Below, in pieces: positions 3 to 31,804 of a DNA stretch of 64,000 nt. The position numbers and the translations under genes are program-made. This stretch comes from Naegleria gruberi (Eukaryota). The stretch lies in NCBI GenBank assembly GCA_000004985.1, contig GG738875.1, one strand, 5' to 3'. The notes under the pieces are model-generated. The model saw only the letters and a list, made by a program, of their open reading frames with translations. It was not told where the DNA came from and did not search any database. The stretch's first letter is position 1, and each line of letters opens with the position of its first letter.

Positions 3-2312
3 TTTGGAATTGATATTAAAAAATTATCAACACAAATAGAAAATGAAAATGTTGAAGATTTTTTAAAAGAATTTGAAAAACATAAAATTTATTCAATTTT
101 AATAATTAAAGATGAAAATAATTCCAATAGAAGAATTACAAAAATTAAAAATATTTTTATTGGATTTTGTGAATTATTTTATAATTATGAATTTGAAGAA
201 TTAAAATGTAATAATTATATTGAAAATATTAAATTTAATTATAATTATATTTATAATATTGATTTAAATTATAATAATAATTATACTAAATTAGTTAAAA
301 ATAGAATTGGTAAAATATTTTCTAAAAATAATATTTATTGTAGTTTTAATAGTAAATTACAATTACAATATTTATATGGTGATATTGATTTTAATATAAA
401 TGTTAATAATTTTAATAATTTAATATTTGATCCTTTAATTATGGATTGGATAACTGATACAAATATGGAACATGTTCCAAAAAAGTCAATTTATGATTTA
501 TATAATCATTATTTTAATAATAATTTTAATAATAATTTAAATAATAATTTAAATAATAATAATAGTGATAATAATTCTAATGATACAAGTCAAAAAGAGA
601 ATAAAGAAAGTAAAAAGAAAAAATCTAAAAAGAACTCTCAATCTAATAGTCAACAATCTAATAATAATTCTAATTCCAATTCATCCAATAATAATAATAT
701 CAATAATAATAATAATAATAGTCAAAAACAAGAAAAAGAACAATTTAATGAAATGTATGAAAATATAAATGAAATTCAAAATGGAAATAATTTATATATG
801 AATATAAAAATAATAATTAAATTATATGAAATGATATTAAATTTAAAATTATTAGAACCATTTATAAAAGAATGTAAATTAACATCAATAATATCAAATA
901 TGGAATGGAATGGAATTGGATATAATCCAAATCAAGTAAATGAATTAATTAATATAATTGAAAATGAAAAAAATGAACAAACTTTAATTTTACAAGAATT
1001 ATGTAATATTAATAATTATTCACATAAAAAAATTAAATTAACAAATAATAATGATATTGCTTTTATTTTATTTGATATTTTAAAAATGAAACCACCACAA
1101 TTAACTATTAAAAAAGGAAATAGATCTACTAAAAAGGATGCTTTAAAAATATTAATGATTGAATATCCAAATTATAAAAAAATTATTGAATTAATAATTT
1201 TATTTAGAAAAATACAAAATATTTCAACTAAATTTACAATTGATTTTTTTAATAAATATATTTATCAATATGATTATAATTTAAATAATTTAAATAATAA
1301 TAATAATATAAATAATATAAATATAAATAATTCAAGTAATAATGTAAATAATAATATAAATAATAATATAAATAATAATATAAATAATTCAAATAATAAT
1401 AATATAAATAATAATAATAATATAATATATTTAATACATTCAACACAAGAACAAAATTCAACATCAACAGGTAGAATTTCATGTAAAGAACCAAATTTAC
1501 AATCATTACCAAAACCATTAACTTTTTATAGTGAATATAAAAAAGGAAATTTAACATTTAATACAAGAAGTGTAATTAAAAGTACAAATGATAATCAAAT
1601 ATTATTATCAGCTGATTTTTCACAAATTGAAATTAGATTAATTGCACATTTTAGTAAAGATCCAATTTTAATATCATTACTAAAAAAGGGAGGTGATATA
1701 TTTTTAGAAATGGCTAAACAAGTATTTAAAACTGAAAATGTAACAAAAGAACAAAGATCACAAATTAAAACATTAACTTATGGTATTTTATATGGAATGG
1801 GTGATGATAAATTATCAATTGAATTATTTAATTCTATAAATAGAATTGAAGATGCTAAAAAATATAAATTAAATTTTTTTAATCAATTTAAAAATATTGA
1901 AATATTAAAAAATGAAATTGAATTTAATTTAACTAAAAATGGATATATTGAAACTATAAATGGAAGGAGAAGATATTTACAATCAATTTATTCAAATGAT
2001 TTAAATGAAATTTCTAAAACTAAAAGACAATCTTTTAATTCAACTATACAAGGATCAAGTGCAGATATAATTAAACAATCAATTATAAATGTACATTCAA
2101 ATATTATTAAATTTAATTTAAATATTAATTTAATTTTACAAATACATGATGAATTATTATTTCAAATTGATAAAAATCAAATTTTACAATCTTTTAATAT
2201 TATTAAAGAATCAATGGAAAATTCTTTTAATTTACTTGTACCAATACCTGTTAAAATTATGATTGGAAATAATTGGGGAAATATGAAGGAAGATTTTAAT
2301 GAATTTTTATAA
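3..2312 (+). CDS. Family A (Pol I/Pol theta-like) DNA polymerase, C-terminal polymerase domain; 5' end outside window
   Basis: The frame is open from base 3 and is the same frame as the track ORF at 441. Pol A motifs are present: LLSADFSQIEIRLIAH (motif A, DYSQIELR), RSQIKTLTYGILYGMG (motif B, K..NFG..YG) and QIHDELLFQ (motif C, HDE). ISCKEPNLQSLPKP matches the O-helix/PNLQNIP region. Poly-Asn inserts are present. The stop is TAA at 2310-2312. Confidence 0.8.
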   Translation, partial: FGIDIKKLSTQIENENVEDFLKEFEKHKIYSILIIKDENNSNRRITKIKNIFIGFCELFYNYEFEELKCNNYIENIKFNYNYIYNIDLNYNNNYTKLVKNRIGKIFSKNNIYCSFNSKLQLQYLYGDIDFNINVNNFNNLIFDPLIMDWITDTNMEHVPKKSIYDLYNHYFNNNFNNNLNNNLNNNNSDNNSNDTSQKENKESKKKKSKKNSQSNSQQSNNNSNSNSSNNNNINNNNNNSQKQEKEQFNEMYENINEIQNGNNLYMNIKIIIKLYEMILNLKLLEPFIKECKLTSIISNMEWNGIGYNPNQVNELINIIENEKNEQTLILQELCNINNYSHKKIKLTNNNDIAFILFDILKMKPPQLTIKKGNRSTKKDALKILMIEYPNYKKIIELIILFRKIQNISTKFTIDFFNKYIYQYDYNLNNLNNNNNINNININNSSNNVNNNINNNINNNINNSNNNNINNNNNIIYLIHSTQEQNSTSTGRISCKEPNLQSLPKPLTFYSEYKKGNLTFNTRSVIKSTNDNQILLSADFSQIEIRLIAHFSKDPILISLLKKGGDIFLEMAKQVFKTENVTKEQRSQIKTLTYGILYGMGDDKLSIELFNSINRIEDAKKYKLNFFNQFKNIEILKNEIEFNLTKNGYIETINGRRRYLQSIYSNDLNEISKTKRQSFNSTIQGSSADIIKQSIINVHSNIIKFNLNINLILQIHDELLFQIDKNQILQSFNIIKESMENSFNLLVPIPVKIMIGNNWGNMKEDFNEFL

Positions 2313-5655: not shown

Positions 5656-8118
5656 ATGGAGAATGATGAAACATTGATAGAAATTGAATGTGATGGTACA
5701 ATAACACTGGAACATAACGGTCAATTAATAACAATCAATGCACCAACCGGACATCAAACATTTAAATTAAAAATCAAAAATAATCAAAACAAAACACCTA
5801 AAATCACAAGTAGTCCAAATGTCATTTTCAATGATGATGATAACATTATTAAAACAATTGTACAATCCAAATTCAAAAATGAAAAATTGGTGAAAAAGTA
5901 CGGATGGAGATGTGATAAAGAAAAAAAAGTCCAATTTTTCACATTCACAAGTTCACAAGATGGAAAACTGTATGTGGTTAAAGTTTTCAAAAAGGAGGGA
6001 TTTACTTGGGAAAGAGATTTCATACGAGAAGTTTCTTATGTGATTAATATAAGTCATCCCAATATTGTCAGGATTTATGAGGGAGATACATTTACAATTA
6101 ACGATGTAAAATTTAATTATTACAAAATGGATTATTATACTCATGGCTCTCTTGAAGCATGGGCAAATGAAAGGACAAATCTAAATGAAAAAAGTTTATT
6201 AATGATAATGTTACAATTGGTCAATGCTGTAAAATTCATTCAAACTAGAAACATTATTCATAGAGATATTAGACCAGCTAATATACTAATTCAACATATT
6301 AATAATAATGATGGAATACCAATAATTGCTCTTGCTGATTTTGAATATGCTACCAAACCAGAAAATTCTTCAGTTAAAGGAAGTATATGTGGAACTCCAA
6401 ACTATGATCCAAAAATTATAACTCATGGATATTCTTTTAATAGTGATTGTTATTCTATTGGTAGAACAATGTTTGACTTGATTGTTGAGAGTACAAATAA
6501 TGATAATTCATTATTTGATGATGATGATAATGATCTCAATTCAACCATAAAAGATGATGATAGACCTAAAATAGAAGATTTACTTGAACAAAATATCATT
6601 TCAGAAACATTTGCTAAATTAATTTTCAGTTTGTTGGAAGATAGTATTGATCTAGATATATTATGTATCAAGTTACTACAATTATTACAAAAATATATCA
6701 AATGGACCGAATATATTAAAGATGAATATATATTAAGTATTATACAATCTAATGTTTATATTGAATTCAAAGTAGTTGAAGAAGATTATACTAATTTTGA
6801 ATACATTTCAGAACAATCTAAAAATAATTACGAATTCAAAAAAAAATCAGTACAAAAGAATGGACTTGTCATTCAATATTTTACAAATGAAGATAAGAAT
6901 AATATAGAATTGGTAAAATTAGCTTTCAATAATAATTATAATTCACTTCAATTTGCATCAGAAGAAATAAGAAAAAATTTCAAATTAATGCAAGAATTTT
7001 CAGAAAAAGAACCATTATGTTTAGAATATATATTAGATGTTAATAACATTATATATAAACTGAATATGAAAAATCTAGTACAGAAAAATGGATTGGCACT
7101 TCAATATGCTACTGAATCAGATAAAAATAATATTGATATTGTAAAACTAGCTGTAAAACAAAATCCACAATCATTAAGATATTCCAGTAAGGATATTAGA
7201 GAAAATTTTTTACCATATTCTCTTAAAAGTATATTTGATATTTTTCGAAATTATTCAAATGAATTCACAAAGAATAAGAGAATAGTATTAGAATCTATCA
7301 GGGAAAATGTATTAGCTTTTGAATATGCTGATATAGTTTTCAAAAATGATTTTGAATTTATTTGTGAGGCTATTAAATACAACAATAAGATATTATCCTA
7401 TCTATTTAAATTGAATGATATGGAGGATATTCAAAATATAGTGGATTTAATTGATAAAAGAACCAACAATTTAACTCTAAACAAATGTCCGAGTAATGAA
7501 TTAATCAACTTTTTAAAAAAAATGAAACAATTAACTTTACTTGATTTTATTTATAATATTGGTGACGAAGGTGCCAAATTAATAAGTGAAATGAAACAAT
7601 TAACTTCACTTGATATTAGTGAAAATAATATTGGTGTTGAAGGTGCCAAATATATTAGTGAAATGAAACAATTAACTTCACTTAATATATGTAGAAATGA
7701 GATCGGTGTTGAAGGTGTCAAATATATTAGTGAAATGAAACAATTAACTTCACTTGATATTAGTTATAATAAGATTGGTGTTGAAGGTGCCAAATATATT
7801 AGTGAAATGAAACAATTAACTTCACTTGATATTAGTGAAAATAATATTGGTGTTGAAGGTGCCAAATATATTAGTGAAATGAAACAATTAACTTCACTTG
7901 ATATTAATTATAATAAGATTGGTGACGAAGGTGCCAAATATATTAGTAAAATGAAACAATTAACTTCACTTAATATACGTAGAAATGAGATTGGTGTTGA
8001 AGGTGTCAAATATATTAGTGAAATGAAACAATTAACTTCACTTGATATTAGTTATAATAAGATTGGTGTTGAAGGCGCAAAATACCTTAGTGAAATGAAA
8101 ACGAAAACAATTTATTGA
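5656..8118 (+). CDS. Protein kinase-like domain + two DUF4116-like repeats + about 8-10 ribonuclease-inhibitor-type leucine-rich repeats
   Basis: The catalytic loop is HRDIRPANILI. DFE replaces DFG in ADFEYAT. The activation segment is GTPNYDP. There is no GxGxxG loop. Two repeats, QKNGLVIQYFTNEDKNNIELVKLAFNNNYNSLQFASEEIRKNF and its second copy, match the DUF4116 pattern. The C-terminus consists of 24-aa units MKQLTSLDISENNIGVEGAKYISE, which are RI-type LRRs. Confidence 0.8.
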   Translation: MENDETLIEIECDGTITLEHNGQLITINAPTGHQTFKLKIKNNQNKTPKITSSPNVIFNDDDNIIKTIVQSKFKNEKLVKKYGWRCDKEKKVQFFTFTSSQDGKLYVVKVFKKEGFTWERDFIREVSYVINISHPNIVRIYEGDTFTINDVKFNYYKMDYYTHGSLEAWANERTNLNEKSLLMIMLQLVNAVKFIQTRNIIHRDIRPANILIQHINNNDGIPIIALADFEYATKPENSSVKGSICGTPNYDPKIITHGYSFNSDCYSIGRTMFDLIVESTNNDNSLFDDDDNDLNSTIKDDDRPKIEDLLEQNIISETFAKLIFSLLEDSIDLDILCIKLLQLLQKYIKWTEYIKDEYILSIIQSNVYIEFKVVEEDYTNFEYISEQSKNNYEFKKKSVQKNGLVIQYFTNEDKNNIELVKLAFNNNYNSLQFASEEIRKNFKLMQEFSEKEPLCLEYILDVNNIIYKLNMKNLVQKNGLALQYATESDKNNIDIVKLAVKQNPQSLRYSSKDIRENFLPYSLKSIFDIFRNYSNEFTKNKRIVLESIRENVLAFEYADIVFKNDFEFICEAIKYNNKILSYLFKLNDMEDIQNIVDLIDKRTNNLTLNKCPSNELINFLKKMKQLTLLDFIYNIGDEGAKLISEMKQLTSLDISENNIGVEGAKYISEMKQLTSLNICRNEIGVEGVKYISEMKQLTSLDISYNKIGVEGAKYISEMKQLTSLDISENNIGVEGAKYISEMKQLTSLDINYNKIGDEGAKYISKMKQLTSLNIRRNEIGVEGVKYISEMKQLTSLDISYNKIGVEGAKYLSEMKTKTIY

Positions 8119-8400
8119 AATTCAATAATTTCATCCTTATTGGTACATTAATTTCTCTCAAATACCATTAGTGAAATTCATTAATTAACTTCACTTGAAT
8201 TCATTATAATAAGTTGGTGATTAATTCCTTATACATTATAAAATCAATACAATCTATTTTCACTTCTTTTCCATAGAAATAATATTGGTGTTGAAGGTGT
8301 CAAATACATTAGTGAAATGAAACAATTAACTTCACTTGATATTAGTTATAATAAGATTGGTGATGAAGGCGCAAAATACCTTAGTGAAATGAAAACGAAA
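7540..8400 (+). repeat. Array of about 12 units of a 72-bp tandem repeat encoding LRRs, extending past the stop codon with one decayed and one intact extra unit
   Basis: The units are near-identical at the DNA level, for example atgaaacaattaacttcacttgatattagt...ggtgttgaaggtgccaaatatattagtgaa. Copies after the TGA lie at 8120-8280 (decayed) and 8281-8400 (intact). Confidence 0.85.
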
Positions 8401-8405
8401 ACAAT

Positions 8406-9582
8406 TTATTGAAATTCAATAATTTCATCCTTATTAGTTACATTAATTTCTCTCTTTAAAACCATTGAAGTATATTCATTAATAATTTCATTTAAATTCT
8501 TATTAACTTGAATGATTAATTCCTTTTTAACATTATCAAAATCAATAATTCTTTTTTGACCTCTTTTCCAAACAAGATAAAATCTATAAAAAGCACTTGA
8601 ATAAGCAATATTAAAAGCATCCATTACAGAATCTTCATACTTGTTAATAAATGATTTTAATTTACCTTCAATTAACATTTTTAAAATCATTTGAGTAATA
8701 TTTAAAGAAACAACAGCCATTGGAAATGATTGAGTTTGTGATAGAGAATAAATATCTTGAGTTGTTTTTTCATCACTATAAACAAAGAATAATAATTGTA
8801 AAATACCTAACATTCCAACTCCTCTTAAATCTGTTTTTGGATCATTTCCTTGAAATCCAATGGCTTCCCAATGTGCTCCAATAGATGGACAATTTTGTTT
8901 ATCTCCTGTTATTTTTTTATATATTGTAAATAATTGTCTTTCATGTTGTTCAATTTCATGATTTAATGGTATTTGTGTTAAGGCTATTAAAAATTCTTTT
9001 TCCTTTCTTATATTTTCATTATCTGTCTTTGAAAAACATGAAAATATTTTACTAAACATGGAATTTGATGATGAATTTGTTAATTTATCTCTTGCTACTT
9101 CTATTTCTGTTTTCATTTTAATTGAGTTATAATATTTAATAGTTTCATCATAACTAATATTTAATTCTCTACTATTTAATTCACTTATTTGAACTGTTTG
9201 TTGTCCATATTGTTGTTGTTCTCTTAATAATTGTACATCATCCCATTGTTTTTTAACATTTTCATAGGCTTCATTCATATCTTCTTCTTCAATTTGTATT
9301 GTTTCATTAGTAATAGTAGTATTTGTTATATTGTTATTAGTTGTATTAATAGTTATTGCTGATGTTGTATTATTGTTATTGGTTAGTAGTGTTAGTAATT
9401 TTAATTTGTTCTAATTGTTTAAATTCCTTAGAAATATCATTAGCAGATTCATCCCTATTTGATGTTTGATTCTTTGAAAATTCTTCATCCCAATTATAAG
9501 GCTCTTCATCTTTTTCTTCATTAAAATCAATATTTAAGTCATCATCATTCAATTCGTCAACTTCCTTATGGTGGAGATCCAT
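8406..9582 (-). CDS. ELMO/CED-12 domain protein; probable frame break near 9376-9400
   Basis: The ELMO motif is WEAIGFQGNDPKTDLRGVGMLGILQLL. The main ORF at 8406-9278 stays open upstream of its listed M. The ORF at 9376-9582 lies in another frame and encodes an acidic N-terminus. I interpret these as one gene with a 1-nt indel or a tiny intron. Confidence 0.7.
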
Positions 9583-11177: not shown

Positions 11178-12740
11178 NNNNNNNNNNNNNNNNNNNNNNN
11201 NNNNNNNNNNNNNNNNNNNNNNNNNNNNNNNNNNNNNNNNNNNNNNNNNNNNNNNNNNNNNNNNNNNNNNNNNNNNNNNNNNNNNNNNNNNNNNNNNNNN
11301 NNNNNNNNNNNNNNNNNNNNNNNNNNNNNNNNNNNNNNNNNNNNNNNNNNNNNNNNNNNNNNNNNNNNNNNNNNNNNNNNNNNNNNNNNNNNNNNNNNNN
11401 NNNNNNNNNNNNNNNNNNNNNNNNNNNNNNNNNNNNNNNNNNNNNNNNNNNNNNNNNNNNNNNNNNNNNNNNNNNNNNNNNNNNNNNNNNNNNNNNNNNN
11501 NNNNNNNNNNNNNNNNNNNNNNNNNNNNNNNNNNNNNNNNNNNNNNNNNNNNNNNNNNNNNNNNNNNNNNNNNNNNNNNNNNNNNNNNNNNNNNNNNNNN
11601 NNNNNNNNNNNNNNNNNNNNNNNNNNNNNNNNNNNNNNNNNNNNNNNNNNNNNNNNNNNNNNNNNNNNNNNNNNNNNNNNNNNNNNNNNNNNNNNNNNNN
11701 NNNNNNNNNNNNNNNNNNNNNNNNNNNNNNNNNNNNNNNNNNNNNNNNNNNNNNNNNNNNNNNNNNNNNNNNNNNNNNNNNNNNNNNNNNNNNNNNNNNN
11801 NNNNNNNNNNNNNNNNNNNNNNNNNNNNNNNNNNNNNNNNNNNNNNNNNNNNNNNNNNNNNNNNNNNNNNNNNNNNNNNNNNNNNNNNNNNNNNNNNNNN
11901 NNNNNNNNNNNNNNNNNNNNNNNNNNNNNNNNNNNNNNNNNNNNNNNNNNNNNNNNNNNNNNNNNNNNNNNNNNNNNNNNNNNNNNNNNNNNNNNNNNNN
12001 NNNNNNNNNNNNNNNNNNNNNNNNNNNNNNNNNNNNNNNNNNNNNNNNNNNNNNNNNNNNNNNNNNNNNNNNNNNNNNNNNNNNNNNNNNNNNNNNNNNN
12101 NNNNNNNNNNNNNNNNNNNNNNNNNNNNNNNNNNNNNNNNNNNNNNNNNNNNNNNNNNNNNNNNNNNNNNNNNNNNNNNNNNNNNNNNNNNNNNNNNNNN
12201 NNNNNNNNNNNNNNNNNNNNNNNNNNNNNNNNNNNNNNNNNNNNNNNNNNNNNNNNNNNNNNNNNNNNNNNNNNNNNNNNNNNNNNNNNNNNNNNNNNNN
12301 NNNNNNNNNNNNNNNNNNNNNNNNNNNNNNNNNNNNNNNNNNNNNNNNNNNNNNNNNNNNNNNNNNNNNNNNNNNNNNNNNNNNNNNNNNNNNNNNNNNN
12401 NNNNNNNNNNNNNNNNNNNNNNNNNNNNNNNNNNNNNNNNNNNNNNNNNNNNNNNNNNNNNNNNNNNNNNNNNNNNNNNNNNNNNNNNNNNNNNNNNNNN
12501 NNNNNNNNNNNNNNNNNNNNNNNNNNNNNNNNNNNNNNNNNNNNNNNNNNNNNNNNNNNNNNNNNNNNNNNNNNNNNNNNNNNNNNNNNNNNNNNNNNNN
12601 NNNNNNNNNNNNNNNNNNNNNNNNNNNNNNNNNNNNNNNNNNNNNNNNNNNNNNNNNNNNNNNNNNNNNNNNNNNNNNNNNNNNNNNNNNNNNNNNNNNN
12701 NNNNNNNNNNNNNNNNNNNNNNNNNNNNNNNNNNNNNNNN
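11178..12740. other. Assembly gap (N run)
   Basis: Run of n characters. Confidence 1.
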
Positions 12741-14005: not shown

Positions 14006-14467
14006 ATGATTGGTTTAAAATTTCCAATAAATTTTGGAAGTATAAGATTAAAAAAAATGAAGAAACGATCTTTACCATCATGGGCTTCATCATCACCTAC
14101 TTCTAATAATAATAATACTTTATCATCAACAATAATTACATCTACAACCAATAATACTACAAGTGATCAACAACAATCTACTATTACTAATAATTATGAT
14201 AATAATATAAAATCGGAAGAAGTAAATGATGATAAACAAGATGATCGTAATTATTTATCACCATTCGAAATGTCTAAAAAAAGAAAAATTGAACAAGATC
14301 AATTATTACAATCTTCTTCACAATCATCCTCTCAACCATTAGATGATAATATTAATATTACTAATAATAATAATGATCATAAAAAAGTAAATTATTCCAA
14401 TTTAATTAAACCTAATAAGGAATTAATTAACAAATATATAAATTTCTATATGAAATATCAACGTTTA
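14006..14467 (+). CDS. 5' part of the DEDDh exonuclease gene (N-terminal Ser/Asn-rich region), truncated by the gap
   Basis: The first ATG is at 14006; the track start at 13997 is a GTG. The last 87 nt before the gap (14381-14467) are identical to 17819-17905, and the protein continues ...NKYINFYMKYQRL into IILDCETSGF. Confidence 0.5.
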
Positions 14468-16040
14468 NNNNNNNNNNNNNNNNNNNNNNNNNNNNNNNNN
14501 NNNNNNNNNNNNNNNNNNNNNNNNNNNNNNNNNNNNNNNNNNNNNNNNNNNNNNNNNNNNNNNNNNNNNNNNNNNNNNNNNNNNNNNNNNNNNNNNNNNN
14601 NNNNNNNNNNNNNNNNNNNNNNNNNNNNNNNNNNNNNNNNNNNNNNNNNNNNNNNNNNNNNNNNNNNNNNNNNNNNNNNNNNNNNNNNNNNNNNNNNNNN
14701 NNNNNNNNNNNNNNNNNNNNNNNNNNNNNNNNNNNNNNNNNNNNNNNNNNNNNNNNNNNNNNNNNNNNNNNNNNNNNNNNNNNNNNNNNNNNNNNNNNNN
14801 NNNNNNNNNNNNNNNNNNNNNNNNNNNNNNNNNNNNNNNNNNNNNNNNNNNNNNNNNNNNNNNNNNNNNNNNNNNNNNNNNNNNNNNNNNNNNNNNNNNN
14901 NNNNNNNNNNNNNNNNNNNNNNNNNNNNNNNNNNNNNNNNNNNNNNNNNNNNNNNNNNNNNNNNNNNNNNNNNNNNNNNNNNNNNNNNNNNNNNNNNNNN
15001 NNNNNNNNNNNNNNNNNNNNNNNNNNNNNNNNNNNNNNNNNNNNNNNNNNNNNNNNNNNNNNNNNNNNNNNNNNNNNNNNNNNNNNNNNNNNNNNNNNNN
15101 NNNNNNNNNNNNNNNNNNNNNNNNNNNNNNNNNNNNNNNNNNNNNNNNNNNNNNNNNNNNNNNNNNNNNNNNNNNNNNNNNNNNNNNNNNNNNNNNNNNN
15201 NNNNNNNNNNNNNNNNNNNNNNNNNNNNNNNNNNNNNNNNNNNNNNNNNNNNNNNNNNNNNNNNNNNNNNNNNNNNNNNNNNNNNNNNNNNNNNNNNNNN
15301 NNNNNNNNNNNNNNNNNNNNNNNNNNNNNNNNNNNNNNNNNNNNNNNNNNNNNNNNNNNNNNNNNNNNNNNNNNNNNNNNNNNNNNNNNNNNNNNNNNNN
15401 NNNNNNNNNNNNNNNNNNNNNNNNNNNNNNNNNNNNNNNNNNNNNNNNNNNNNNNNNNNNNNNNNNNNNNNNNNNNNNNNNNNNNNNNNNNNNNNNNNNN
15501 NNNNNNNNNNNNNNNNNNNNNNNNNNNNNNNNNNNNNNNNNNNNNNNNNNNNNNNNNNNNNNNNNNNNNNNNNNNNNNNNNNNNNNNNNNNNNNNNNNNN
15601 NNNNNNNNNNNNNNNNNNNNNNNNNNNNNNNNNNNNNNNNNNNNNNNNNNNNNNNNNNNNNNNNNNNNNNNNNNNNNNNNNNNNNNNNNNNNNNNNNNNN
15701 NNNNNNNNNNNNNNNNNNNNNNNNNNNNNNNNNNNNNNNNNNNNNNNNNNNNNNNNNNNNNNNNNNNNNNNNNNNNNNNNNNNNNNNNNNNNNNNNNNNN
15801 NNNNNNNNNNNNNNNNNNNNNNNNNNNNNNNNNNNNNNNNNNNNNNNNNNNNNNNNNNNNNNNNNNNNNNNNNNNNNNNNNNNNNNNNNNNNNNNNNNNN
15901 NNNNNNNNNNNNNNNNNNNNNNNNNNNNNNNNNNNNNNNNNNNNNNNNNNNNNNNNNNNNNNNNNNNNNNNNNNNNNNNNNNNNNNNNNNNNNNNNNNNN
16001 NNNNNNNNNNNNNNNNNNNNNNNNNNNNNNNNNNNNNNTN
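14468..16040. other. Assembly gap (N run, one stray t)
   Basis: Run of n characters. Confidence 1.
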
Positions 16041-17720: not shown

Positions 17721-17770
17721 NNNNNNNNNNNNNNNNNNNNNNNNNNNNNNNNNNNNNNNNNNNNNNNNNN
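17721..17770. other. Assembly gap
   Basis: Run of n characters. Confidence 1.
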
Positions 17771-18739
17771 GATGATAATATTAATATTAATAATAATACC
17801 ACTATTACTAATAATAATGATAATAAAAAAGTAAATTATTCCAATTTAATTAAACCTAATAAGGAATTAATTAACAAATATATAAATTTCTATATGAAAT
17901 ATCAACGTTTAATAATTTTAGATTGTGAAACAAGTGGATTTACTAAAAATGATCAAGTGATTGAATTAGCAGCAATTGAAGTTATAAATGGAATGAAAAC
18001 AGGTTTAATATTTAATACAAGAATTAAATTAAATGAAAATGTTAAAATTCATGAAAAGGCTTTTAATGTTCATCAAATAAGTGAACAAGATTTAATTACA
18101 AAACCAAATTCTAATTTTATTTATTCTAATTTTATTGAATTTTTAAAAGATAAAAATAATTTAAATACTGGTATTATTGCACATAATTTAAATTTTGATT
18201 TAAGAATGATTAAACAAGATATTTTAAAATATTTATTTAATGAAAATTTAAATGATATTAATAATTTAAATGATAAATTACCAAATATATTAATAGATAC
18301 AAATAGACATTTTTGTACAATGAATTTTTATAAAAATATAAGAGGAAAGAATAATAGTTATGATTTAGATAGTACATTACATTATTTTGGAATTAATAAA
18401 AAACAAAGACAAGATAAACATACAGCACTCATTGATACACAAGTTACTTTTGAATTATTTAAAAGTTTAAAACAATATATTGAATTAAATATTAATAATC
18501 AATCTATTAATGATTATTATTATAAATATTTATTAAATAATAATACTATCAATAGTAGTAATAATATTATTAATACTAATACTACTAATAATGGTCAAGT
18601 AAATTCATCATCATCCTCTGTCAATACTACTACAACTATTAATGTGGTGGCAGAAAATGTATCTAATGATGAAATGAATATTGATAATGAAAATTATTCA
18701 ATATTTAGTTATATTAAAGATCTATTCAAATGGTTTTAA
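17771..18739 (+). CDS. DEDDh 3'-5' exonuclease (DnaQ/epsilon-like), 3' part of the gene begun at 14006
   Basis: Exo I is ILDCETSGF (DxE), Exo II is IIAHNLNFDLRMI and Exo III is HTALIDTQVTFELF (H-x4-D). The stop is TAA at 18737-18739. Confidence 0.75.
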   Translation, partial: DDNININNNTTITNNNDNKKVNYSNLIKPNKELINKYINFYMKYQRLIILDCETSGFTKNDQVIELAAIEVINGMKTGLIFNTRIKLNENVKIHEKAFNVHQISEQDLITKPNSNFIYSNFIEFLKDKNNLNTGIIAHNLNFDLRMIKQDILKYLFNENLNDINNLNDKLPNILIDTNRHFCTMNFYKNIRGKNNSYDLDSTLHYFGINKKQRQDKHTALIDTQVTFELFKSLKQYIELNINNQSINDYYYKYLLNNNTINSSNNIINTNTTNNGQVNSSSSSVNTTTTINVVAENVSNDEMNIDNENYSIFSYIKDLFKWF

Positions 18740-19844: not shown

Positions 19845-21127
19845 NNNNNNNNNNNNNNNNNNNNNNNNNNNNNNNNNNNNNNNNNNNNNNNNNNNNNNNN
19901 NNNNNNNNNNNNNNNNNNNNNNNNNNNNNNNNNNNNNNNNNNNNNNNNNNNNNNNNNNNNNNNNNNNNNNNNNNNNNNNNNNNNNNNNNNNNNNNNNNNN
20001 NNNNNNNNNNNNNNNNNNNNNNNNNNNNNNNNNNNNNNNNNNNNNNNNNNNNNNNNNNNNNNNNNNNNNNNNNNNNNNNNNNNNNNNNNNNNNNNNNNNN
20101 NNNNNNNNNNNNNNNNNNNNNNNNNNNNNNNNNNNNNNNNNNNNNNNNNNNNNNNNNNNNNNNNNNNNNNNNNNNNNNNNNNNNNNNNNNNNNNNNNNNN
20201 NNNNNNNNNNNNNNNNNNNNNNNNNNNNNNNNNNNNNNNNNNNNNNNNNNNNNNNNNNNNNNNNNNNNNNNNNNNNNNNNNNNNNNNNNNNNNNNNNNNN
20301 NNNNNNNNNNNNNNNNNNNNNNNNNNNNNNNNNNNNNNNNNNNNNNNNNNNNNNNNNNNNNNNNNNNNNNNNNNNNNNNNNNNNNNNNNNNNNNNNNNNN
20401 NNNNNNNNNNNNNNNNNNNNNNNNNNNNNNNNNNNNNNNNNNNNNNNNNNNNNNNNNNNNNNNNNNNNNNNNNNNNNNNNNNNNNNNNNNNNNNNNNNNN
20501 NNNNNNNNNNNNNNNNNNNNNNNNNNNNNNNNNNNNNNNNNNNNNNNNNNNNNNNNNNNNNNNNNNNNNNNNNNNNNNNNNNNNNNNNNNNNNNNNNNNN
20601 NNNNNNNNNNNNNNNNNNNNNNNNNNNNNNNNNNNNNNNNNNNNNNNNNNNNNNNNNNNNNNNNNNNNNNNNNNNNNNNNNNNNNNNNNNNNNNNNNNNN
20701 NNNNNNNNNNNNNNNNNNNNNNNNNNNNNNNNNNNNNNNNNNNNNNNNNNNNNNNNNNNNNNNNNNNNNNNNNNNNNNNNNNNNNNNNNNNNNNNNNNNN
20801 NNNNNNNNNNNNNNNNNNNNNNNNNNNNNNNNNNNNNNNNNNNNNNNNNNNNNNNNNNNNNNNNNNNNNNNNNNNNNNNNNNNNNNNNNNNNNNNNNNNN
20901 NNNNNNNNNNNNNNNNNNNNNNNNNNNNNNNNNNNNNNNNNNNNNNNNNNNNNNNNNNNNNNNNNNNNNNNNNNNNNNNNNNNNNNNNNNNNNNNNNNNN
21001 NNNNNNNNNNNNNNNNNNNNNNNNNNNNNNNNNNNNNNNNNNNNNNNNNNNNNNNNNNNNNNNNNNNNNNNNNNNNNNNNNNNNNNNNNNNNNNNNNNNN
21101 NNNNNNNNNNNNNNNNNNNNNNNNNNN
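19845..21127. other. Assembly gap
   Basis: Run of n characters. Confidence 1.
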
Positions 21128-29508: not shown

Positions 29509-31804
29509 TTAATGCTCAATTTTAATAGTATGAATCATCATATCATTTCTACCTTGTTGAGTTGAAATTACTTTCCATTCAAAGGGATCTGTTATTTCAT
29601 TGGGTTGATGATTTAATTTTCCTCTCACTTGTTTCAATCCTCTCGATAATGCAAATAGAAATATTTGTCTACAATCTTTTAAATGTTGAGGGAGATGATT
29701 GTAATTTTGAGGATTACAACGAATTGCAAATTCCCCAATTTCCTTCATTGATTTAATTTCATCTCTAAGATGAATATACATATTAGGTTGTTTACAAAGT
29801 GTTGATTTCACAATTTTCAAATTAGTTTGAAATTGGATAGGTAAATTTTGAATATCTGTAAATGCACTAGTTTCAAATATTGCCTTTTCAACAAATTCTG
29901 AATCATTCAATAATTCATTACTGAAATATGAAAATGTAATACTGCTCAAATCAGCACTTTCGTAATAATTTCTTATATTTTTACAACAATCAATCAAATG
30001 CATTGCCATTTCCTTATTATTTGAATATGATTCATCCAATGTTATAATTCCTGGATTTAATTTCATTGCCACTTTGAAATAATCAGGATTCTTATAAATT
30101 GTTTCATCAAATAAAAATATATCAGTTCCATTTTCTAATACTTTTGTAATCCACTCTGGGGATGCCATCAGTTTCTCCTCTAATATCCCTTCAACTCTTA
30201 TATCAATCCCACTTTTTACAACAATATCAAATACTTCATCATCTTGAATAACNNNNNNNNNNNNNNNNNNNNNNNNNNNNNNNNNNNNNNNNNNNNNNNN
30301 NNATTTGCTTAATGAACGGAATGTTCCTTTGAAGGAGAGGTGGAAGTTTTTTGAAAAATTTAAACCCCATTTGAGAATTTTCCATATTTTCGAGGGATAA
30401 TTTAAACATTTCCATAATTGTTATGTTTGAAATATCGATTGGATATATAATGTACATTATGTTTTCTCCCCTTGATTTCACAGCTAATTGACAAAGTTCA
30501 GTATATTGATCGTAATGATAATATTTGGAATCTAACTTCTCAAATACATGTGGATGCTTTCTAATAATTTCAATGAGCTCATTATATCCAAGATAATGTT
30601 CATTGTGATGCAAAATGAGTGAAATGCCTTCAGGTACTATTGATACAATACTAGTTATGAACTCAATTTCATCCTTTGTGAATGGATTGATTCTATTTTT
30701 CCCCAAATAGGAAGAAAGATAGATGGATGAATAAAGTTCGAAATAACCAGTTGAAAAAGCTTGTCTAATAAGTGATTTATCACTTTCCAACTTATCAGAT
30801 AGTGTAACTGTTGAAACGAAATCATGCTCATAATACATTTTCCAATTAGGTATTCTCGGTTTACCATATTTTTTTCTAATATTAGTATTATCATAATGTC
30901 TAATGCAATAACTAACAAATTCTGAATCATCTTTCAAATAATTTGGCAAACAATCAAATGGTATTAAACCAAGTCGTATCAATAAATAAAATAAGTCCCT
31001 CCTATTATTGTACATTTCCATAAATTGAGCTAGTTCATTATTGTTAATGGTGCTACTGAAAAACTGTTTTAGATTTGTTAATCTCTCTTTCAACATATCC
31101 AACTCTTTAATTCCATGAGGATAAGTTGCAGATTTTAACATTAAATTTGATATTTTCTCAACATTTAAGTTTTGTAAAATTAGTTTTGGGTTTGAAGCAG
31201 CACTTTGCAATTCTTTTGAAATTTCAACCCAATTCAAATATTCCAATTTACAAAATTCATACCAAGCACTATTTAAATCCCTTCTTTCAATATCACTAAA
31301 CCATTTAAATCTTGACATTAAATTAGATAAAATTCTATGAAATCCATTTAATCTATTATCATCACAACTATCATCATGTTGTTCTTTGTGTGTCATCATT
31401 GTTCCTTTAAATTGAATTAATTCTTTACATTTTCTAAACGAAACTTCTCTCCCTCCCAAATATTTAACTCTTTTCATATAATAATTAATACATTGATTTA
31501 ATATTTGTTCATTTCCACTTGATGGTAAATCGTGAATTTGTAAAATCTTACCACTTGTCAATGGAAAGGCTAATTCAGGTTCAATCATGAATTTAATAAA
31601 TCGGAGTGTTTTAAAGTATTCATTCTCATTCATATTAAAATAATTAAATGAATTTGAAAGCATTAATGAAAACATTGAATTTGTATCGAGAAAGGAGATT
31701 ATATAGTGAAATAATTCTGTTGATAAATCACTTTGAATCATTACACCGATCATCATTTTAAAAACATTTTCCTCATCTTGTTGCATTTTTTTCAGACTGA
31801 TCAA
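29509..31804 (-). CDS. Hypothetical protein with DUF4116-like repeats; spans the 50-N gap
   Basis: The ORFs at 30239-31804 and 29509-30168 are collinear across the gap at 30253-30302. The repeats are AIRCNPQNYNHLPQHLKDCRQIFLFALSRGLKQV and LIRLGLIPFDCLPNYLKDDSEFVSYCIRHYD. Confidence 0.5.
30253..30302. other. Assembly gap
   Basis: Run of n characters. Confidence 1.

What the first reader, a model, noticed from the sequence alone, without database searches (positions are those of the whole stretch)
7540..8460. Near-identical 72-bp coding repeats, with the gene end and ELMO gene end duplicated in tandem
The LRR units are nearly identical at the nucleotide level, which implies recent expansion, concerted evolution or assembly collapse. 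The segment 8078-8160 (last repeat + stop + about 40 nt) recurs at 8376-8460. Between the two copies lie a decayed repeat unit and another intact unit. The second copy contains the true 3' end of the convergent ELMO gene (...NKDEIIEFQ* on the minus strand), so about 290 bp spanning the tail-to-tail junction of the two genes is tandemly duplicated.
Basis: seen in the sequence. Interest (0 to 1): 0.6.

Follow-up and report, generated by a model that had tools for sequence, protein, structure and literature searches.

The report
Probable assembly-made duplicate of a gene junction
The near-identical 72-base repeats are an ordinary leucine-rich-repeat array in an annotated Naegleria gruberi kinase gene, and the apparent 294-base tandem duplication of the kinase/ELMO gene ends is most likely an error of the draft Sanger assembly, not a biological duplication.

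Summary
The sequence is as described. The window is Naegleria gruberi NEG-M draft sequence. ORF 5656-8118(+) is the annotated 820-aa protein NAEGRDRAFT_68813, made of a kinase domain, four DUF4116 repeats and 24-residue RNI/GALA-type LRRs. ORF 8406-9278(-) is the annotated ELMO protein NAEGRDRAFT_68814.

Seven 72-nt units are 82-100% identical, two of them exactly. They form a 4-unit (288 nt) higher-order repeat.

Segment 7982-8160 recurs at 8276-8455, 294 nt further on, with 156 of 160 identical before one indel.

The 118 nt between the copies (8161-8278) is not a simple duplication junction. It is a position-by-position blend of two unrelated sequences:
- the true ELMO tail (8455-8575);
- the LRR units that precede copy 1 (7863-7981).

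Every base matches one or the other. There are about 18 alternations, no private bases and sharp edges. Random decay never reproduced this (0/2000 simulations). A per-column merge of the two sequences reproduces it quantitatively.

This is what a consensus over a false overlap of two sequence sets looks like. The same window has six N gaps and another unmerged contig-end overlap.

The duplication is most likely an assembly artefact (about 0.65). A genuine duplication is not excluded, because no reads were available. Interest is low.

The parts
5656..8118 (+). Kinase-DUF4116-LRR gene, single ORF of 820 aa (NAEGRDRAFT_68813, XP_002675835.1)
   Evidence: ORF. 100% identical over the full length to the annotated N. 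gruberi protein. Pfam hits: Pkinase at residues 97-329, DUF4116 x4, LRR_6.
7513..8088 (+). Array of eight 72-nt (24-codon) LRR units. Unit 1 is diverged; units 2-8 are 82-100% identical in DNA; there is a 288-nt higher-order period.
   Evidence: The best solved-structure matches are GALA-type LRR proteins.
8089..8118 (+). Truncated ninth unit and stop codon (SEMK|TKTIY*). The LRR-derived sequence ends after SEMK and the reading frame runs into the ELMO 3' flank.
   Evidence: Paralogues also end abruptly inside a unit.
7982..8160 (+). Junction copy 1: end of unit 7, unit 8, the kinase stop and 42 nt of antisense ELMO tail. It carries a 1-nt deletion that breaks the ELMO frame.
8161..8278 (.). 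Hybrid zone X: a per-position blend of the ELMO tail (8455-8575) and LRR units (7863-7981). It is non-coding in all six frames.
8276..8455 (+). Junction copy 2. It contains an open LRR reading frame RNNIGVEGVKYISEMKQLTSLDISYNKIGDEGAKYLSEMKTKTIY* that is not joined to the kinase ORF, plus the true ELMO stop.
   Evidence: No credible intron joins it to the kinase ORF.
8406..9278 (-). ELMO/CED-12 domain gene, annotated CDS of 290 aa (NAEGRDRAFT_68814). The stop codon is at 8406-8408.
8455..8575 (-). Genuine ELMO C-terminal coding sequence, one of the two parents of the hybrid zone.
   Evidence: The tail is conserved in the relative P0122 and in more distant homologues. It is not similar to LRR units (z -1.3 and -0.7).
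9376..9582 (-). Probable upstream coding part of the ELMO gene, left out of the annotated model. It is separated from the main ORF by a 1-nt frameshift.

Best explanation
The 72-nt repeats are a genuine RNI/GALA-type leucine-rich-repeat array at the C-terminus of an annotated N. gruberi kinase. The array was kept or made near-identical by in-place unit amplification and exchange, with a 4-unit, 288-nt period.

The second copy of the gene-end junction is most likely not in the genome. Two sets of Sanger reads (or two contig ends) both contained '...LRR units - last two units - kinase stop - ELMO tail...'. They were laid out about 294 nt out of register, roughly one higher-order repeat plus alignment slack, instead of on top of each other. 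Where the end of the first set (ELMO tail) lay over the start of the second (LRR units), the consensus caller chose one or the other base column by column. That gave the 118-nt hybrid at 8161-8278.

The two sets may be two alleles of one locus. The copies differ at 4 of 160 sites, always between variants already seen in other units. Alternatively they may be a short (8-unit) and a long (12-unit) allele.

In the true sequence the two convergent coding regions would then abut and overlap by 7 nt (8406-8412). Both annotated proteins are unaffected, because each gene is read from the outer copy.

What is shown: the anatomy and the blend statistics. What is inferred: that the blend arose in the assembly software and not in the cell.
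For: 1. Two unrelated parents. The hybrid zone is significantly similar to both. For 8161-8222, z is 12.7 against the LRR consensus and 6.8 against the ELMO tail. For 8223-8278, z is 4.4 and 9.5. The ELMO tail itself is not similar to LRR units (z -1.3 and -0.7).
2. No private bases. All 118 positions match one parent or the other (73 both, 25 ELMO only, 20 LRR only, 0 neither). Random decay of either parent to the same identity leaves 8-10 private bases on average and never 0 in 2000 simulations each. Decoy parents leave at least 4-7. With four scoring schemes the observed count is 0-2, against 8-19 expected, and at most 1 of 1000 simulations reaches it.
3. A merge model fits. Choosing per column from the aligned parents predicts length 120, 81% match to each parent and 0 private bases. 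Observed: length 118, 83% and 79%, and 0.
4. Too many switches. The 45 informative sites fall into 18 runs, far more switches than a recombination junction would give.
5. Edges and polarity. The zone has sharp edges: 8119-8160 has 17 ELMO-only and 1 LRR-only site, and 8279-8300 has 9 LRR-only and 1 ELMO-only. The polarity is not that of a tandem duplication: the left half has 12 LRR-only and 9 ELMO-only sites, the right half 8 and 14.
6. The lag of 294 nt is within 6 nt of the array's own 288-nt higher-order period.
7. Assembly context. This is a Sanger draft of a heterozygous strain (PMC9928731). The window has six N runs and three contigs of about 2 kb within 3-12 kb of the locus. The last ~90 nt before the gap at 14468 are identical to 17823-17911, just inside a later contig, which is another unmerged overlap. 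A 1-nt frameshift splits the ELMO gene.
8. Known error class. Duplicated overlapping contig ends from haplotype differences are described in PMC2864568. False duplicates joined by unsupported sequence are described in PMC9516828.
Against: - No reads, depth or second assembly of N. gruberi could be consulted. The exact protein look-ups and the two metagenome scans found nothing, so the artefact is inferred from the consensus sequence alone.
- The two copies lie in one contig with no N between them. Kelley and Salzberg state that duplications within a single contig are rarely misassembled.
- An assembler should not normally accept a 118-nt overlap of about 62% identity, so the exact software path is unexplained.
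- The copies differ at 4 substitutions. They therefore come from two distinct real sequences, which a true duplication would also give.
Confidence: 0.65

Rival explanations
1. Genuine tandem duplication made by unequal exchange. Two chromatids or homologues paired out of register by four LRR units. The exchange ran past the end of the array, so the ELMO tail was paired with LRR units. Short-patch repair of that heteroduplex left a mosaic junction. The result would separate two convergent genes whose coding regions previously overlapped by 7 nt.
For: - The lag of 294 nt is close to the 288-nt higher-order period.
- The array shows clear signs of repeated unit exchange, such as unit 2 being identical to unit 5.
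- The copies differ at 4 of 160 sites, as two real sequences would.
- The sequence is contiguous in one contig.
- A blend with sharp edges is also what a repaired heteroduplex tract would look like in principle.
Against: - The two paired sequences are unrelated. They are about 62% identical only with 30 gap columns, and have no local similarity above shuffles.
- From general knowledge of homologous recombination, a 118-nt heteroduplex between such sequences and about 17 repair switches within it are not expected.
- No private mutation has accumulated in a non-coding stretch, so the event would have to be very recent.
Confidence: 0.25
2. Genuine older tandem duplication with one simple junction. 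The redundant middle part then decayed by ordinary mutation, while gene conversion kept the LRR part similar.
For: - The outer parts are 97% identical and the middle only about 72-83% identical to the ELMO tail.
- The middle has stop codons in all frames, and the ELMO frame in copy 1 is broken.
Against: - Random decay predicts 8-19 bases matching neither parent. Observed: 0-2, reached in at most 1 of 1000-2000 simulations.
- Wherever the zone departs from the ELMO tail it matches the LRR units at the matching offset, and the reverse also holds.
- LRR-like and ELMO-like patches are interleaved throughout, not split at one junction.
Confidence: 0.04
3. The second LRR piece (8279-8412) is a real 3' exon of the kinase gene, and 8119-8278 is an intron, so the protein has more units than annotated.
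For: - The second piece keeps an open LRR frame ending in the same TKTIY*.
- 8275-8278 reads ATAG, a possible acceptor.
Against: - The acceptor at 8278 is not phase-compatible with any GT donor.
- The only 10 frame-preserving GT..AG pairs all use an AG inside GAAG|GT at 8296, with non-consensus donors inside LRR codons, and they delete unit parts.
- The in-frame stop at 8116-8118 precedes the region, and the annotated model ends there.
Confidence: 0.02

Closest known systems
False duplications in draft assemblies: 'duplicated overlapping contigs' from haplotype differences (Kelley and Salzberg 2010, PMC2864568) and heterotype false duplications joined by gaps or unsupported sequence (Ko et al. 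2022, PMC9516828)
   Same: - Two adjacent, nearly identical copies (97%) of a stretch that includes coding sequence.
- A Sanger draft of a heterozygous organism.
- Between the copies lies sequence that looks like no real parent alone.
- A second unmerged contig-end overlap and several gaps lie in the same window.
   Different: The copies sit inside one contig, joined by a hybrid consensus and not by an N gap. The diagnostic read-depth and mate-pair tests could not be run.
RNI-like / GALA-type 24-residue leucine-rich repeats (Pfam LRR_6, PF13516; Ralstonia GALA proteins, PDB 9j7j and 4xa9), and the large N. gruberi family of such proteins
   Same: The unit LTSLDISxNxIGxEGAKYISEMKQ is 24 residues long. 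LRR_6 scores 135 bits. The best solved-structure match is a GALA protein, E 2e-42. At least 18 N. gruberi paralogues have 44-75% identical arrays, and many end inside a unit.
   Different: Here the array follows a kinase domain and four DUF4116 repeats, not an F-box-like N-terminus. Units within the gene (82-100% in DNA) are more alike than any paralogue is to the array (at most 75% in protein).
LRR-containing kinases: ROCO/LRRK kinases and plant LRR receptor kinases
   Same: A protein kinase domain and an LRR array occur in one polypeptide.
   Different: There is no Roc GTPase or COR domain. The LRRs are C-terminal to the kinase, not N-terminal. The kinase domain is closest to CaMK/ULK/DCLK-type kinases. 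It is not a member of either family.
ELMO/CED-12 domain proteins of the ELMOD type
   Same: PF04727 covers residues 97-250 (E 3e-39). Homologues are named ELMO domain-containing protein 3-like.
   Different: Nothing unusual was seen, except that the annotated model probably lacks its N-terminal part.

Membership tests
Genuine simple tandem duplication | Two head-to-tail copies of one unit | tested here: met
   7982-8160 and 8276-8455 lie 294 nt apart with 156/160 identical. Weaker similarity continues to 8278/8575.
Genuine simple tandem duplication | A single junction, with the 3' part of the unit (ELMO tail) on its left and the 5' part (LRR) on its right | tested here: not met
   45 informative sites fall in 18 alternating runs across 118 nt. 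The left half has 12 LRR-only and 9 ELMO-only sites, the right half 8 and 14.
Genuine simple tandem duplication | Redundant non-coding copy accumulates private mutations | tested here: not met
   0-2 private bases against 8-19 expected. At most 1 of 1000-2000 simulations reaches the observed value.
False duplication from assembly (duplicated overlapping contigs / heterotype duplication) | Adjacent near-identical copies differing by a few substitutions or indels | tested here: met
   4 substitutions in 160 nt, plus one indel.
False duplication from assembly (duplicated overlapping contigs / heterotype duplication) | Gap or read-unsupported sequence between the copies | tested here: inconclusive
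   There is no N gap. The intervening 118 nt behaves as a per-column merge of the two flanking contexts, which suggests unsupported consensus, but read support could not be examined.
False duplication from assembly (duplicated overlapping contigs / heterotype duplication) | Half or low read depth, and discordant mate pairs | not testable with these tools
   No reads were available. The exact look-ups and metagenome scans found no other copy of the locus.
RNI-like / GALA-type LRR (Pfam LRR_6) | Tandem 24-residue units with LxxLxLxxNxIGxxGA consensus, scoring above the family threshold | tested here: met
   LRR_6 scores 135.5 bits against a cutoff of 23.4. GALA protein 9j7j matches at E 2e-42.
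Protein kinase superfamily | Pkinase domain above threshold, with catalytic HRD and a DFG-type aspartate | tested here: met
   Pkinase scores 109 bits against a cutoff of 31.7. The sequence reads IIHRDIRPANIL and ALADFEY, that is DFE in place of DFG, so the aspartate is kept (direct reading). Activity was not tested.
ROCO / LRRK kinases | Roc GTPase and COR domains between the LRRs and the kinase | tested here: not met
   No Roc or COR family appears among the Pfam hits. The order is kinase - DUF4116 - LRR.
ELMO/CED-12 domain family | PF04727 domain above threshold | tested here: met
   135.4 bits against a cutoff of 23.3, covering residues 97-250.

The most novel reading that the evidence does not exclude
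The 294-nt duplication is real. It would have been produced by an unequal exchange between LRR arrays misaligned by one 4-unit higher-order repeat. The exchange ran beyond the array into the neighbouring gene, and repair left a fine-scale mosaic junction. In doing so it separated two convergent genes whose coding regions had overlapped by 7 nt, giving each a private 3' flank.
Probability: 0.2. Interest if true: 0.4.

Novelty: not a real feature. Interest (0 to 1): 0.1.

Why it matters
The value is mainly a caution about the assembly.

- The N. gruberi NEG-M reference is still the only assembly of this species used in comparative work, and this locus probably contains about 294 nt that do not exist.
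- Both annotated proteins are unaffected.
- The intergenic distance is affected: +287 nt in the assembly, against a probable 7-nt overlap of the two coding regions.
- Any 3' UTR or antisense-transcript analysis, and any count of LRR units or 'recent duplications', would be misled.
- The per-column blend test used here asks whether the stretch between two copies matches 'what should follow copy 1' or 'what should precede copy 2' at every base. It is a simple way to flag such joins without reads.
- If the duplication were real, it would be a small, neat example of repeat-array instability spilling into a neighbouring gene.

Tried and rejected
- Independent copies of the locus. Exact-product look-ups for the kinase found nothing. 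The kinase is alone in its cluster. Two exact-pattern scans of metagenome contigs, one for the junction and one for the ELMO body, found nothing. The original genome paper and a review are not in the held library.
- The ELMO tail as a diverged antisense LRR unit, which would make the hybrid zone an evolutionary intermediate. Rejected: the tail has no similarity to LRR units (z -1.3 and -0.7). It is also conserved in a 63%-identical relative and recognisable in distant homologues.
- An intron joining the kinase ORF to the second LRR piece. Rejected.
- Conserved gene order as a test. In the relative's contig the convergent neighbour of ELMO is IFT43, 4 nt away. No IFT43 homologue is in this window. 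The kinase-ELMO adjacency is therefore not shared, and the relative cannot show the ancestral junction.
- 'AT-rich islands' seen in the composition profile. These turned out to be N runs.
- The bacterial promoter and terminator scan. It is irrelevant for a eukaryote and showed nothing.
Full report
**Source and genes.** The window is Naegleria gruberi NEG-M draft sequence. ORF 5656-8118(+) translates to 820 aa. It is 100% identical over its full length to the annotated protein NAEGRDRAFT_68813 / XP_002675835.1. Pfam finds a protein kinase domain (residues 97-329), four DUF4116 repeats and an LRR_6 array. The kinase domain is closest to CaMK/ULK/DCLK-type kinases, and the LRRs to GALA-type 24-residue LRR proteins. 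On the other strand, ORF 8406-9278 is 100% identical to NAEGRDRAFT_68814, a 290-aa ELMO/CED-12 domain protein. The strain was sequenced by Sanger shotgun (40.9 Mb, 1,977 scaffolds) and is reported to be heterozygous (PMC9928731).

**The repeats.** Tandem Repeats Finder gives a 72-nt period over 7520-8394. In frame there are eight 24-codon units at 7513-8088, with the consensus SEMKQLTSLDISxNxIGVEGAKYI. Unit 1 is diverged. Units 2-8 share 59-72 of 72 nt, and units 2 and 5 are identical. Identity is 94% at a lag of 288 nt and 88% at a lag of 72 nt, so the array is built from a 4-unit higher-order repeat. N. gruberi has many paralogues with such arrays, at 44-75% protein identity, and many of them end abruptly inside a unit. 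The units within this gene are more alike than any paralogue is to the array. That points to in-place amplification or exchange, which is ordinary behaviour for LRR arrays. A ninth unit is cut after SEMK, and the frame runs TKTIY* into what is the 3' flank of the ELMO gene.

**The duplication in the assembly.** Segment 7982-8160 holds the end of unit 7, unit 8, the stop and 42 nt beyond. It recurs at 8276-8455, 294 nt further on. Of the first 160 positions, 156 are identical, followed by one indel plus one substitution at 8142-8145. All four substitutions switch between variants that other units already carry (RNE/RNN, IGV/IGD, TAT/TAC). The second copy contains the real ELMO stop at 8406-8408. 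The ELMO C-terminal tail is genuine: a 63%-identical relative from an ENA metagenome contig ends ...EKAELAEF*, and distant homologues keep a tail of similar length. In the second copy the kinase-type TGA (8410-8412) overlaps the last ELMO codon (8409-8411). In a one-copy state the two convergent coding regions would therefore overlap by 7 nt. Such tight tail-to-tail spacing is normal here: in the relative, ELMO and its convergent neighbour IFT43 are 4 nt apart.

**The decisive observation: the 118 nt between the copies (8161-8278, called X).** A simple tandem duplication predicts that X starts as ELMO tail and switches once to LRR sequence. Instead X is similar throughout to both of the following:
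- E, the ELMO tail that follows copy 2 (8455-8575);
- L, the LRR units that precede copy 1 (7863-7981).

Local alignment z-scores against dinucleotide shuffles are as follows. For 8161-8222, z is 12.7 against the LRR consensus and 6.8 against E. For 8223-8278, z is 4.4 and 9.5. E itself is not similar to LRR units (z -1.3 and -0.7).

Position by position, all 118 bases of X match E or L: 73 match both, 25 match E only, 20 match L only and none matches neither.

Controls:
- If E or L is decayed at random to the same identity, 8-10 bases on average match neither parent, and none of 2000 simulations each reaches zero.
- Replacing either parent by decoy stretches of the window leaves at least 4-7 unmatched bases.
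- With four different scoring schemes the observed count is 0-2, against 8-19 expected, and at most 1 of 1000 simulations reaches it.
- A model that aligns E to L and picks one of the two bases per column predicts length 120, 81% match to each parent and no private bases. Observed: length 118, 83% and 79%, and none.

The 45 informative sites fall into 18 runs. The zone has sharp edges. Segment 8119-8160 is ELMO-type (17 E-only sites, 1 L-only), and 8279-8300 is LRR-type (9 L-only, 1 E-only). Inside the zone the LRR signal is, if anything, stronger on the left, which is the wrong polarity for a duplication junction. X has stop codons in all six frames.

**Interpretation.** A column-wise mixture of two unrelated sequences, with no private changes and with sharp ends, is what a consensus looks like when the end of one sequence set is laid over the start of another. 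Both sets contain the stretch L - last units - stop - E. They should have been superimposed, but they were placed about 294 nt apart. That is the array's 288-nt higher-order period plus a few alignment columns. The four differences between the copies show that two distinct real sequences are involved. These are most simply two alleles, either of the same length or one with 8 units and one with 12.

This class of error is documented for Sanger assemblies of heterozygous genomes: duplicated overlapping contigs (PMC2864568), and false duplicates connected by gaps or unsupported sequence (PMC9516828).

The local context fits this reading:
- The window has six N runs and three contigs of about 2 kb, starting 2.7 kb from the locus.
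- The last ~90 nt before the gap at 14468 are identical to 17823-17911, just inside a later contig, so another overlap was left unmerged.
- The ELMO gene is split by a 1-nt frameshift.

**Points against this reading.**
- No reads or second assembly could be examined.
- The copies lie inside one contig, where misassembled duplications are said to be rare.
- I cannot say how the assembler came to accept a roughly 62%-identical overlap.

A real alternative exists. An unequal exchange between arrays misaligned by four units could have run past the array end and been resolved with patchy repair. I rate it at about 0.25, because it needs a heteroduplex between unrelated sequences and about 17 repair switches in 118 nt.

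Plain duplication followed by decay is disfavoured by the simulations. An intron joining the second LRR piece to the kinase ORF is not supported.

**Verdict.** The repeats are a real and ordinary LRR array in an already annotated gene. The junction duplication is probably an assembly artefact (confidence 0.65). Both protein models stand. The intergenic spacer of 287 nt probably does not exist. Interest is low. The decisive tests are read mapping or a single PCR across 7450-8650.

Noticed in passing
window 14378-14467 and 17823-17911: The last ~90 nt of the contig that ends at the gap starting at 14468 are identical to sequence 50 nt inside the contig that starts at 17771. The blast hit is 124 nt at 94%. 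Between them lie a 1.7-kb contig and two gaps. This looks like an unmerged contig overlap or a misplaced small contig.
   Followed up: partly
window 11178-12740, 14468-16038, 16040, 17721-17770, 19845-21127, 30253-30302: Six runs of N (4,518 N in all) break the window into contigs of 11.2, 1.7, 1.7, 2.1, 9.1 and 33.7 kb. The very low GC values in a composition profile are these gaps, not AT-rich islands.
   Followed up: yes
window 9279-9582, minus strand: The annotated ELMO model starts at 9278. However, ORF 9376-9582 (MDLHHKEVDE...SKEFKQLEQIK) is homologous to the N-termini of the N. fowleri and metagenomic relatives. It joins the main frame through a 1-nt frameshift in an Asn/Thr-rich stretch with no GT..AG intron. 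This is either a base error in the consensus or a truncated gene model.
   Followed up: partly
L001 1189-1196, compared with window 8406-8412: In a 63%-identical Naegleria-like relative, ELMO and a convergent IFT43 gene end 4 nt apart. Here ELMO's neighbour is the kinase-LRR gene, and no IFT43 homologue is in the window. The gene order at this junction therefore differs between the two organisms.
   Followed up: partly
window 6240-6420 (kinase catalytic core): The kinase keeps HRD (IIHRDIRPANIL). It reads DFE in place of DFG, and GTPNYDP where APE is usual, so catalytic competence is uncertain.
   Followed up: no
proteins P0146, P0148, P0149, P0157, P0159, P0172 (N. gruberi paralogues): A large N. 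gruberi family combines an F-box-like N-terminus with the same SEMKQLTSL-type LRR units. Many models stop abruptly inside a unit. This suggests either frequent breakpoints in such arrays or frequent assembly or annotation truncation.
   Followed up: no
window 1276-1443: A short direct repeat with a lag of 63 nt (119 nt at 82%) lies in a very AT-rich stretch at the start of the window. It was not examined.
   Followed up: no
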